Below are positions 8,501 to 11,500 of a stretch of 64,000 bases of DNA, in pieces. Location of the stretch: NCBI RefSeq assembly GCF_000026545.1, contig NC_011601.1; one strand, 5' to 3'. Every line of letters begins with the position of its first letter. Position 1 is the stretch's first letter. Position numbers: made by a program. Origin of the DNA: Escherichia coli O127:H6 str. E2348/69. Lineage in GTDB: Bacteria; Pseudomonadota; Gammaproteobacteria; Enterobacterales; Enterobacteriaceae.

Positions 8501-11500
8501 ATGATGTTACGTACGTTAAAATCATTTCGTCATATTGCCTCCTCTGAATCTGGCGTCAAAATATCTAAAATGCCTCTGATGGATATCTTTATTCAACAAT
8601 TTATAGAGAGCGTGCGTAAGATTGTGCAGAGAGGGTTAAAACGTGACTATTTACGTCAGGAAGATAATCTTCCATGGATGAAAGGAAGATTACGGATCTC
8701 TGCACAATTAAGCAAAAACTGTATTAGGCGGGATCGTTTTCAGGTGGAGTATGACGAGTACAGCGTCAATCGTCTGGAAAACCGGATACTCAAAACTGCA
8801 ATCAATAAGATTAGTCGCCAGACCAGTAATCCACAATTATTACAGCAGATAACACAGCTGCAGTTTCACTTTGAAAATATCACGTCAGTTCATGATGCTT
8901 ATATAGCTTTCGAGCAGTTACACTTTGATAGACAAATGCATCACTATGAGCAAGCATTAGCGTGGGCGAAGATGATTTTATTGGGCGATTCTCCACACTG
9001 TATGTATGGGGATGTTAATGCTTTTTCACTGCTTTTCCCGATGGAGGCTGTTTTTGAATCTTTTGTGACGACATGGATGCGTTATCGTTATTATGATAAA
9101 TGGCGAGTGGACGCACAGGTAAGTTCAAAAAATCTGATTAGTTATAACGGTAAAGCTTTATTTAAGCTGCGGCCTGATATTTGTTTACGGCCTCGTAAAA
9201 GTACTACTGGTTCAGTTATTACCTGTGATGTTAAATGGAAGATAGTAAATGGCAGAAAGGACAGTCTTGAACAATCTCAAGCCGATCTCTACCAAATGCT
9301 TGCCTATGGATTGAATTACCAGGAGGGGGAAGGTGATATGATTTTGATATACCCCTATCATAACGGATTTAATCAGCCATCTCCTCATCCTTATGAATTT
9401 AGCCATCAGAAGGAAAATAGGTTACGTTTATGGGTTGTACCTTTCTTTATTGGCGAGAGTTTACAAACATCAGAGTTGCGTTTTCCTGGTGGGGCTGAAT
9501 TTATTTAGTATTTGTAGGCTATCTCTTTATACAATTTATTTGTCTATTTGTATGCACAAAATAGCCTACCTCACCCCCTAAAAACCTCTTTCCGATGCCA
9601 CTCTACAAACACCTCATAAGGGTAATTTTTACGTACCTGCGGCAAAGCAATAGTTTTCCCGTCAAAATCCCAGAATAGTTTCTCAACGATCCCTCCGCCG
9701 TTTACCGCATCTGATACCAGTACCCGCATATTTTCGTCCAGGCCAATCGATCCTTTATCAAAGGCTTTATGGTGAATTGCGCAAAGCGCCAGGCCATTAG
9801 GAATTTCACAAGGACCGCCGTGCTGTTTCCATTTTATATGCGCCGCTTCAAGCGCGACGGTGGTGTCGTCGTGGCGCATATTAAAGCCACATATCGCGCA
9901 CTGGTAGTTATAAGCGCGTAATACATTTTTGCGAAATAACGGGTCGCGCTGTTTACGGATTTGCTGGAGGTCAAAACCCAATTCGTCAGCAATTTCCTCC
10001 TGAATACTCTCGGTAAAATGCGCTTCGAGTATCTGTTGCGCCAGGGTATTGATGAGTTTTTTATTGCCGGTTACCAGGGCGTAGTGCTGTTCATCGAAAC
10101 CGCCTGCAACGCGGTGTTCGGTCAGTTCCTTCACTGGCGGTTGTCGGCTGCTCCCTGCTGTTGAGCAAAGCCCGGCATTGTGTAATTGCCAGAATCCGTC
10201 GCCTTGTAATCGCCAGAACGGCATATCAGGTCGGTACTGTGAACGCTGTGGCCCAAAACGTTCCAGTAAACTGTGCAGAGGTTCGTAGATTTCCGAGCCA
10301 TAATCGAAAAGGCGCGGATGTCCATTCAGGTATCCCGCTAATACGTATAGCAATAACAATGGCTTATGCGGCGCGCGCTGTTCACCCTTGTGCCAGATTT
10401 TTATATTGGCAATTGCCTGCTGTAGCGATTTACTGGAAGCCATTGATATCCCTGGCAGTGAAATAATTGCGATCATGCTCGCAAATTTTCTTCTGTTCAA
10501 GCCTGCAAGTGAAGATATATTACTTTGATCTCATTTGTTTTTTTGCTGCCTGCTCTGAGAACGTATAAGGATATTCCCCATGAATAAACTTCCCGACCAT
10601 CTTCCGCGGCGGTATATCATCGAAGCTATCCATTTATGGGATGCGGGAGAAACTCATCAGTTCCAGCCTGCACGGTTGTATTAGATTGAATATCATGGCC
10701 GACGTTACCCCTCGAAGGCGATTGCTGGCATCGCAGCGACATTGATGACGGGGACGCAATTTACCCCTGCGGATTTCACCGGCGGAATAAAATCTAAATG
10801 CGTCAAACTACTCATAGAGCAGGGATTTCATATTCATCAGGATAAAGCCGCTGCGGCTCCCATAGCCGACGTTCTGTTCCCGGATGAGTTGCCGTCGCAG
10901 GAGACCTACGTTGAAGGTGCGGCGATAAAGGTGACAGTAAACCGCTATGAACGCGATAAAAAGGTCCGAGATAAAGCGGTCGAATATCATGGATGCCAGT
11001 GCAACGTATGCGGCGTTGATCTGGTGAAGATCTATGGTGATATTGCTGAAGGCTTTATCCATATGCATCACCTGGTGCCGCTTTCAGCCATTAAAGAGGA
11101 TTACCAGCTGGATCCAGTTAATGATTTGCTGCCTGTGTGTCCTAATTGCCATGCGATGTTGCACCGACGCAAACCACCGTTTACGCCGGAGGAGTTAAAA
11201 GCGTTGATGGATGCGAATAAATCAAATTAATGAACGCTCACCTTTCGCGCCAAAACTGCAAAATTGCTTCTACAAACCTGTCAGAAATAATCCCCCGACG
11301 GGCTGCCGCGCTGAAATGACTGCTTCGCAGTGCCGTCGTCCAGTTCTCCGGTGACCGGTACGCTGAACCGTAATATCCCGTGCTTAAATCGTCCGGGTCT
11401 TCATCAGGCGCGTTCGTCAGTCCTCTTTCACCTTGTTGCTGGAAGTCGACGAAAATAATATTGGCTAAAACATTATTTTGATAATTGCCATAAATAGCTT

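What the first reader, a model, noticed from the sequence alone, without database searches (positions are those of the whole stretch)
10580..11230. Second HNH nuclease gene interrupted by an in-frame amber codon
The ATG at 10580 is in the same frame as ORF 10742-11230, and the two are separated only by a TAG at 10682-10684 (...QPARLY*IEYHGRR...). The restored protein would be about 216 aa with a C-terminal CxxC/HH/CxxCH HNH motif. This is either a recent nonsense inactivation of a potentially toxic nuclease or a sequencing error.
Basis: seen in the sequence. Interest (0 to 1): 0.45.

Follow-up and report, generated by a model that had tools for sequence, protein, structure and literature searches.

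The report
Strain-specific amber mutation in HNH nuclease
One G-to-T change has put a stop codon at codon 35 of a small defence-island nuclease gene in E. coli strain E2348/69 and its close relatives. It is a real but ordinary pseudogene that the public annotation already flags.

Summary
ATG 10580 and the ORF ending at 11230 share one frame and are separated only by TAG 10682-10684.

The window is E. coli E2348/69. RefSeq/PGAP already annotates 10580-11230 as "HNH endonuclease, pseudogene, internal stop".

About 1,230 of 5,426 complete E. coli genomes carry this region. The TAG-containing 61-mer is exact only in three records of E2348/69 or its derivative. All four intact orthologues read have GAG or GAA (Glu).

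The TAG is not a sequencing error. It appears in three E2348/69-derived assemblies and in 8 of 8 further public contigs examined. Two of those contigs have a different left junction and extra SNPs, so they are different strains.

Compared with the nearest intact allele there are 7 synonymous changes, one missense change (A129V, at a position conserved in at least 90% of the family) and this nonsense change. The lesion is therefore recent.

The ancestral protein is 216 aa. It has an N-terminal ScoMcrA_N "head" domain (function unknown), a disordered linker and a McrA-type zinc-ribbon HNH domain. Homologues across genera start at the same Met, so the protein does not normally start at 10742.

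By architecture and context it is most likely a stand-alone Type IV-like nuclease that is lost in this lineage. Toxicity is untested. Interest is low.

The parts
10580..11230 (+). Whole pseudogene: ScoMcrA_N(head)-linker-HNH nuclease gene, 216 codons plus stop if codon 35 is read as Glu
   Evidence: Translation. PGAP H4J01_RS21410 'HNH endonuclease, pseudo, internal stop' at the same coordinates. Intact orthologues WP_001596460.1, WP_021571039.1, WP_001037969.1 and WP_001037970.1.
10682..10684 (+). Amber codon TAG = E35* (ancestral GAG; GAA in one allele), a G-to-T change at 10682
   Evidence: Alignment with intact alleles. The 61-mer with TAG is exact in only 3 E2348/69-derived records, whereas the GAG version is exact in 290.
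10567..10571 (+). Shine-Dalgarno-like AAGGA, 8 nt upstream of ATG 10580
   Evidence: Read directly from the sequence.
10580..10843 (+). Region encoding the N-terminal ScoMcrA_N head domain (residues 1-88). The TAG falls in its first beta-strand (residues 34-38).
10844..10939 (+). Region encoding the low-confidence linker (about residues 89-120)
   Evidence: pLDDT 45-55 in the model. Length-variable and poorly conserved in the family alignment.
10940..11230 (+). Region encoding the McrA-type zinc-ribbon HNH nuclease domain (residues 121-216)
   Evidence: Pfam HNH PF01844, 21.8 bits against a cut-off of 21.4. phmmer to EcoKMcrA 6GHC residues 199-269. Invariant Cys and His residues.
10745..11230 (+). 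Residual downstream ORF (161 aa from ATG 10745; TTG 10742 lies just before it). Some pipelines call it as a gene. No Shine-Dalgarno sequence precedes it.
   Evidence: The exact 161-aa product is recorded on 40 contigs. PGAP in LT827011 and LT903847 instead calls a 181-aa CDS from ATT 10685.
9571..10443 (-).
   Evidence: NCBIfam NF045808, 437 bits against a cut-off of 180. PGAP WP_000168585.1. PF26340 DNA-SBD_ScoMcrA plus HNH_2.
11230..11319 (+). 29-codon ythB-like small ORF whose ATG overlaps the HNH stop codon (TAATG)
   Evidence: PGAP WP_374758120.1. The corresponding K-12 region is annotated 'protein YthB' (H26). Overlap read from the sequence.

Best explanation
The feature is a lineage-specific pseudogene. 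An ancestral 216-aa nuclease gene acquired a single G-to-T transversion (GAG Glu35 to TAG) in the E. coli O127:H6 E2348/69 lineage.

The gene sits at the nanS-proximal edge of a hypervariable restriction/defence island. That island also holds a type I R-M system, a DUF4942 gene, a McrBC-like pair and an SBD-HNH gene.

Shown: translation from the normal start (ATG 10580, good Shine-Dalgarno sequence) stops after 34 residues, inside the first beta-strand of the N-terminal ScoMcrA_N 'head' domain. No full-length protein is encoded. The only nearby in-frame restarts (TTG 10742, ATG 10745) have no ribosome-binding site and would lack half of the head domain.

Inferred: the intact protein works as a stand-alone Type IV-like (modification- or structure-sensing) DNA nuclease. 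The small head domain, possibly winged-helix-like, would target or regulate a McrA-type beta-beta-alpha-metal HNH domain joined by a flexible linker. The E2348/69 lineage has lost this activity. Its neighbour, the SBD-HNH phosphorothioate-dependent enzyme, stays intact.

Whether the loss was selected or neutral is not determined.
For: - Sequence and frame.
- Window identity: 100% identical to E2348/69 NZ_CP059840.2, where PGAP flags the locus as pseudo with an internal stop.
- Intact orthologues: 216-aa genes at the same position in other E. coli strains, with GAG or GAA at codon 35.
- Frequency: the region is present in 1,232 complete genomes. The TAG 61-mer is exact in only 3 E2348/69-derived records, and the GAG 61-mer is exact in 290.
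- Other datasets: TAG in 8 of 8 further contigs. Some carry extra SNPs or a different left junction, so they are not all the laboratory strain.
- Allele history: the repaired E2348/69 216-aa sequence is absent from a collection of about 15 billion proteins, while its 161-aa and 181-aa truncations are present.
- Substitution pattern against the nearest allele: 7 synonymous, 1 missense and 1 nonsense.
- Family: homologues of about 210 aa share the same N-terminus, and residues before the stop are conserved.
- Domain assignment.
- Restart sites: no Shine-Dalgarno sequence at ATG 10745.
- Suppressors: no tRNA genes in the window.
Against: - No expression or protein data exist. Low-level amber readthrough or re-initiation cannot be excluded.
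- PGAP calls an N-truncated 181-aa 'HNH endonuclease' in two E2348/69-derived records, so annotation pipelines disagree.
- The rest of the E2348/69 genome was not scanned for amber-suppressor tRNAs.
Confidence: 0.9

Rival explanations
1. Sequencing or assembly error: the true sequence has a sense codon at 10682-10684.
For: Only the prior that a single-base nonsense change in an otherwise clean gene can be an error.
Against: The TAG is identical in three E2348/69-derived assemblies: CP059840.2, LT827011.1 'variety 2', and the derivative LT903847.1. It is also present in 8 of 8 contigs from ENA, NCBI and Logan assemblies, including a metagenome and strains with different flanks or SNPs.
Confidence: 0.01
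2. The locus still makes a functional, N-terminally truncated nuclease. This would be 161 aa from ATG 10745, or the 181-aa ATT-start product that PGAP calls. It would keep the HNH domain but lose head-domain control.
For: The downstream frame is fully open and the HNH catalytic and zinc residues are intact. Gene callers annotate 161-aa and 181-aa products. An SBD-deleted SprMcrA becomes a non-specific nicking enzyme (PMC7461809), so truncated HNH proteins can be active.
Against: No Shine-Dalgarno sequence lies upstream of ATG 10745 or TTG 10742, and ATT 10685 directly follows the stop and is an unlikely start. The product would begin in the middle of the head-domain fold, after strands 34-44, and would probably misfold. 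The A129V change at a position conserved in at least 90% of the family suggests relaxed constraint. An unregulated nuclease would be expected to be counter-selected.
Confidence: 0.05
3. The amber codon is read through by a suppressor tRNA or high natural readthrough, so useful amounts of full-length protein are still made.
For: The window alone cannot exclude it. In my recollection, UAG followed by A is not the strongest termination context in E. coli; this was not tested here.
Against: No tRNA genes in the window. Every other lineage examined keeps Glu or Asp at this position. No feature suggesting programmed recoding was noticed around the codon in the sequence read; this was not specifically tested. 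To my knowledge natural E. coli isolates rarely carry amber suppressors.
Confidence: 0.03
4. The nonsense mutation was positively selected because the nuclease became self-toxic in this lineage, for example through conflict with a newly acquired DNA modification. The alternative is neutral decay. This concerns the cause and is compatible with the pseudogene reading.
For: Type IV-like enzymes are known to conflict with acquired modification genes (general knowledge of McrA, McrBC and Mrr). The gene is lost in several other ways in E. coli: an IS1 insertion at the same codon in TUM1881 and only 3' remnants in about 1,500 genomes. The knock-out is a clean, early single hit.
Against: The intact gene is stably carried by about 23% of complete E. 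coli genomes and evolves mostly by synonymous change. No modification system specific to E2348/69 was identified here. Island turnover alone explains the remnants.
Confidence: 0.2

Closest known systems
ScoMcrA (Streptomyces coelicolor SCO4631; PDB 5ZMM), a Type IV phosphorothioate/5mC-dependent restriction endonuclease
   Different: ScoMcrA is 561 aa with head-SBD-SRA-HNH. This protein has no SBD and no SRA domain. The head domain is the only candidate targeting module, and its function is unknown even in ScoMcrA (PMC6224610).
EcoKMcrA (E. coli K-12 McrA; PDB 6GHC)
   Different: The N-terminal domains are unrelated. McrA's 5mC/5hmC-reading N-terminal domain does not align. McrA is prophage-borne (e14, from my own knowledge), whereas this gene is in the chromosomal restriction island next to nanS.
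EcoWI / SprMcrA class SBD-HNH phosphorothioate-dependent endonucleases (NCBIfam NF045808)
   Same: The divergent neighbour gene (9571-10443, minus strand) belongs to this class. The two genes are adjacent in E. coli, Klebsiella aerogenes and Citrobacter sp. FP75, and lie 4 kb apart in an E. coli ICE. Together their N-terminal domains cover consecutive parts of a ScoMcrA-like PADLOC profile: 29-92 and 94-229 of PDLC03662.
   Different: The 216-aa protein itself lacks the SBD (NF045808 16.8 bits against a cut-off of 180). EcoWI works alone in vitro and in vivo (PMC7461809). Head-HNH genes occur without any SBD gene within the sequence fetched (up to 10 kb each side) in K. pneumoniae, Atlantibacter, Escherichia sp. 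ESNIH1, Pseudescherichia, Shewanella and a Steroidobacteraceae MAG. The pairing is therefore not obligate.
Other 'reader domain + McrA-type HNH' nucleases (TagI, PDB 6GHS; Mrr_N-HNH proteins)
   Same: The same modular logic and the same HNH cassette. Of 80 species-level loci retrieved, most match only residues of about 95-216 and carry other N-terminal domains. A Mrr_N-HNH gene sits beside the pair in K. aerogenes.
   Different: They have different reader domains. Their specificities, where known, cannot be transferred to the head domain.

Membership tests
Pseudogene by nonsense mutation | Premature in-frame stop relative to intact, full-length orthologues at the same locus | tested here: met
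   TAG at codon 35 versus GAG or GAA in intact 216-aa orthologues. PGAP flags an 'internal stop'.
Pseudogene by nonsense mutation | The lesion is real, i.e. reproducible across independent sequence datasets | tested here: met
   Three E2348/69-derived assemblies plus 8 of 8 other contigs.
Pseudogene by nonsense mutation | No functional product is made | not testable with these tools
   This needs protein detection or genetics. The only sequence-level indications are the absence of a Shine-Dalgarno sequence at downstream starts and the absence of tRNA genes in the window.
ScoMcrA_N (Pfam PF26345) head-domain proteins | N-terminal domain homologous in sequence and fold to the ScoMcrA head domain | tested here: met
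HNH endonuclease superfamily (Pfam PF01844) | Beta-beta-alpha-metal motif with catalytic His/Asn/His and, in this subclass, two CxxC zinc ligand pairs | tested here: met
   PF01844 scores 21.8 bits against a gathering cut-off of 21.4 (marginal for this allele); homologues score 31-36 bits. C141, C144, H163, H164, C187, C190, H191 and H195 are invariant. Structural matches to HNH domains.
ScoMcrA/EcoWI-type phosphorothioate-dependent restriction endonucleases | Presence of a sulfur-binding domain (SBD, PF26340 / NF045808) | tested here: not met
   NF045808 scores 16.8 bits against a cut-off of 180, over a non-SBD stretch. No PF26340 on any family member. An SBD HMM hits only the neighbouring gene.
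EcoKMcrA family | McrA N-terminal 5mC/5hmC-binding domain plus C-terminal HNH | tested here: not met
   Only the HNH part aligns: 123-198 to 199-269 of 6GHC.
Type IV (modification-dependent) restriction enzymes | Cleavage of DNA only when it carries a specific modification, with no cognate methyltransferase | not testable with these tools
   Only weak partial PADLOC hits to mREase_IV profiles (E of about 5e-6) and the defence-island context. Biochemistry is needed.

The most novel reading that the evidence does not exclude
The intact head(ScoMcrA_N)-HNH protein may be an uncharacterised stand-alone Type IV restriction enzyme. In this reading the 'function-unknown' head domain is a reader for some DNA modification or structure. 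The E2348/69 lineage would have knocked the gene out because it conflicted with something that lineage acquired. A variant reading is that it cooperates with the frequently adjacent SBD-HNH enzyme as a split ScoMcrA-like pair. Neither reading is excluded by the evidence, and neither is supported beyond architecture and context.
Probability: 0.15. Interest if true: 0.45.

Novelty: already known. Interest (0 to 1): 0.12.

Why it matters
It matters little beyond correct annotation. E2348/69 is the prototype EPEC strain, so it helps to know that its restriction island carries one dead nuclease gene (head-HNH, E35*) next to an apparently intact SBD-HNH gene and McrBC-like pair.

RefSeq records of the same strain disagree: one calls a pseudogene and two call a 181-aa ATT-start protein. 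The pseudogene call is the correct one.

A practical point: if this gene is cloned into supE (amber-suppressing) K-12 hosts, it should yield a full-length E35Q protein.

The wider head-HNH family is common (about 23% of complete E. coli genomes and many other genera) and has not been studied experimentally. That is the only route to something new here.

Tried and rejected
- Sequencing error: rejected.
- Protein normally starting at 10742/10745: rejected, because homologues across genera share the MxKLPD N-terminus and conserved residues before codon 35.
- Obligate two-gene system with the SBD-HNH neighbour: tested with HMMs for the head, HNH and SBD domains on 6-frame ORFs of 87 fetched loci. 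Adjacency holds in E. coli, K. aerogenes and Citrobacter sp. FP75, with co-residence in one ICE. Six other head-HNH loci have no SBD gene in the fetched flanks, and EcoWI works alone. So the pairing is frequent in Enterobacteriaceae but not obligate.
- Genome-contig scan: less useful than hoped, because most of the 80 loci matched only the HNH half.
- Local Pfam scan: did not report the head domain because that copy lacks PF26345. The name came from precomputed annotations.
- Promoter scan of the 136-bp divergent intergenic region: nothing found.
- Literature searches: no paper on this gene or on head-HNH enzymes. The E2348/69 genome paper is not held, and two searches failed on term syntax.

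Full report
**Observation**

The sequence shows ATG at 10580, preceded by AAGGA at 10567-10571. There are 34 sense codons and then TAG at 10682-10684. The same frame stays open to TAA at 11228-11230. The mechanical ORF list splits this into a 34-aa ORF (10580-10684) and a 162-aa ORF from TTG 10742, with an in-frame ATG at 10745. The restored product is 216 aa and carries the CxxC / HH / CxxCH HNH signature.

**Identity of the window and existing annotation**

The region is 100% identical to E. coli E2348/69 (NZ_CP059840.2). RefSeq/PGAP already annotates exactly these coordinates as locus H4J01_RS21410, "HNH endonuclease", pseudogene, "internal stop". Two other records are E2348/69 "variety 2" (LT827011.1) and a derivative of it (LT903847.1). 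In these, PGAP instead calls a 181-aa CDS that starts at ATT 10685, directly after the stop. That is an annotation artefact.

**Is the stop real, and how widespread is it?**

- The full-length gene is present in 1,238 of 5,426 complete E. coli genomes.
- A 61-mer centred on the TAG matches 1,232 genomes. It is exact only in the three E2348/69-derived records.
- The same 61-mer with GAG is exact in 290 genomes. Most of the rest are one mismatch away, and a known neighbouring A/G polymorphism explains that in the allele examined.
- All four intact orthologues read have GAG or GAA (Glu) at codon 35.
- The exact 161-aa downstream product of the E2348/69 allele is recorded on 40 contigs. All 8 contigs fetched carry TAG.
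- Those 8 contigs differ from the window by 0-6 SNPs. Two have a different left junction at window 9910 that truncates the neighbouring gene, so they are not all the laboratory strain.
- The repaired 216-aa E2348/69 sequence is absent from the collection of about 15 billion proteins.

The TAG is therefore a genuine mutation fixed in this lineage, not a sequencing error.

**Age of the lesion**

Against the nearest intact allele (FDAARGOS_144, 98.6% identical) there are nine codon differences: seven synonymous, one missense (A129V) and the nonsense change. Comparisons with more distant alleles are also dominated by synonymous changes. The gene was therefore under purifying selection until recently. 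Ala129 is conserved in at least 90% of the family, so A129V may reflect relaxed constraint after inactivation.

**What the gene encodes**

- Homologues of about 205-235 aa occur in Citrobacter, Klebsiella, Pantoea, Enterobacter, Shewanella, a Sulfurimonadaceae MAG and many metagenomes.
- They share the N-terminus (M-x-K-L/I-P-D). Residues before the stop are conserved (A16, F28 and Y34 invariant), and position 35 is Glu or Asp. This refutes a normal start at 10742.
- Residues 24-87 align to residues 29-93 of ScoMcrA (PDB 5ZMM), the "head" domain. Residues 123-198 align to the HNH domain of EcoKMcrA (6GHC).
- Family members carry Pfam PF26345, named ScoMcrA_N, plus PF01844 HNH. The local Pfam copy lacks PF26345.
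- An AlphaFold model (mean pLDDT 81.8) shows a compact alpha/beta head (1-88), a disordered linker (about 89-120) and the HNH domain (121-216). Codon 35 lies in the first beta-strand.
- The ScoMcrA paper states that the head domain is small, flexibly attached and of unknown function (PMC6224610).

**Genomic context**

The gene lies at the nanS-proximal edge of a variable restriction island. The island contains type I hsdMSR, a DUF4942 gene, a 684-aa McrB-family protein with McrC, and a divergently transcribed SBD-HNH phosphorothioate-dependent endonuclease. The last of these scores 437 bits on NF045808.

The head-HNH / SBD-HNH pair recurs in Klebsiella aerogenes and Citrobacter sp. FP75, and both genes sit 4 kb apart in an E. 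coli ICE. However, six other head-HNH loci have no SBD gene in the flanks fetched. EcoWI, an SBD-HNH enzyme, works on its own (PMC7461809). The association is frequent but not obligate.

The HNH cassette itself is fused to many other N-terminal domains across phyla. That is the usual modular design of Type IV-like nucleases.

**Mechanism**

Shown:
- Translation from ATG 10580 ends after 34 residues.
- No tRNA gene is in the window.
- The downstream in-frame starts have no Shine-Dalgarno sequence.

Inferred:
- The ancestral protein is a stand-alone Type IV-like nuclease in which the head domain targets or gates the HNH domain.
- This activity is lost in the E2348/69 lineage.
- Any 161-aa restart product would begin in the middle of the head fold and is unlikely to be functional.

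Whether the loss was selected is open. The intact gene is common, so it is not inherently toxic. It is nevertheless lost in other ways: an IS1 insertion at the same codon in TUM1881, and only 3' remnants in about 1,500 genomes.

**Verdict**

This is a correct observation of an ordinary, already-annotated, lineage-specific pseudogene. The only potentially new biology is the uncharacterised head-HNH family itself.

Noticed in passing
window 11125-11235; L008 5002-5106, L009 5064-5168, L010 about 5001-5047: About 1,500 complete E. coli genomes lack the gene but keep only its 3' end next to nanS. At least three left-boundary classes occur: homology starts at window 11125, 11183 or 11235 (the last is the K-12 type). 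The 3' end of this HNH gene therefore marks the edge of a hypervariable defence island whose contents (BREX remnants, helicases, McrBC-like genes) differ between strains.
   Followed up: partly
L007 (NZ_CP128979.1, strain TUM1881) 1788-2533: An IS1 element is inserted in the same gene within a few bases of codon 35. PGAP annotates the remainder as a 190-aa 'HNH endonuclease'. This is an independent inactivation at nearly the same spot.
   Followed up: no
window 11238-12218 (minus strand): The nanS ORF is intact in the window: 326 aa, with 4 substitutions against an annotated nanS. PGAP nevertheless annotates only an internal 'incomplete' fragment in E2348/69 and many other strains. This always occurs where the 29-aa ythB-like ORF (11230-11319) is also called, so it looks like an annotation-pipeline artefact.
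   Followed up: partly
window 11228-11232: The stop codon of the HNH gene overlaps the ATG of the ythB-like small ORF (TAATG), a typical translational-coupling arrangement. The premature stop at codon 35 would remove any such coupling.
   Followed up: no
L015 and L017 (ENA ERZ761554, ERZ761544), junction at window 9910: Two contigs carry the same TAG allele but have an unrelated sequence to the left of window 9910. This truncates the SBD-HNH gene to 177 aa, so in those strains both HNH nucleases are damaged.
   Followed up: no
L019 4260-5821; L038 2264-3905; L050 8782-10351; L051 8749-10375: In Klebsiella aerogenes, Enterobacter sp. MGH 24, Raoultella planticola and Citrobacter portucalensis, an SBD-HNH gene is immediately followed by another small gene. 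That gene has the same McrA-type HNH cassette but a different N-terminal domain (Mrr_N in K. aerogenes). SBD-HNH genes seem to travel with a second reader-HNH gene.
   Followed up: partly
L034 (Aeoliella straminimaris) 9845-10628: The head domain and the HNH domain fall in two adjacent ORFs (9845-10207 and 10221-10628). This could be another disrupted copy or a naturally split version.
   Followed up: no
window 6147-9508: The McrB-family protein here is 684 aa, with about 430 N-terminal residues unrelated to K-12 McrB; only residues 440-610 match the McrB model. It is paired with a McrC-family protein. It is probably a McrBC-like system with a different DNA-reader domain.
   Followed up: no
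L006 (NZ_CP041678.1, strain ESBL 15) 342-1278: This is the reverse of the E2348/69 situation. The head-HNH gene is intact (codon 35 = GAA), while the neighbouring SBD-HNH gene is reduced to a 150-nt fragment. The two genes are therefore lost independently.
   Followed up: no
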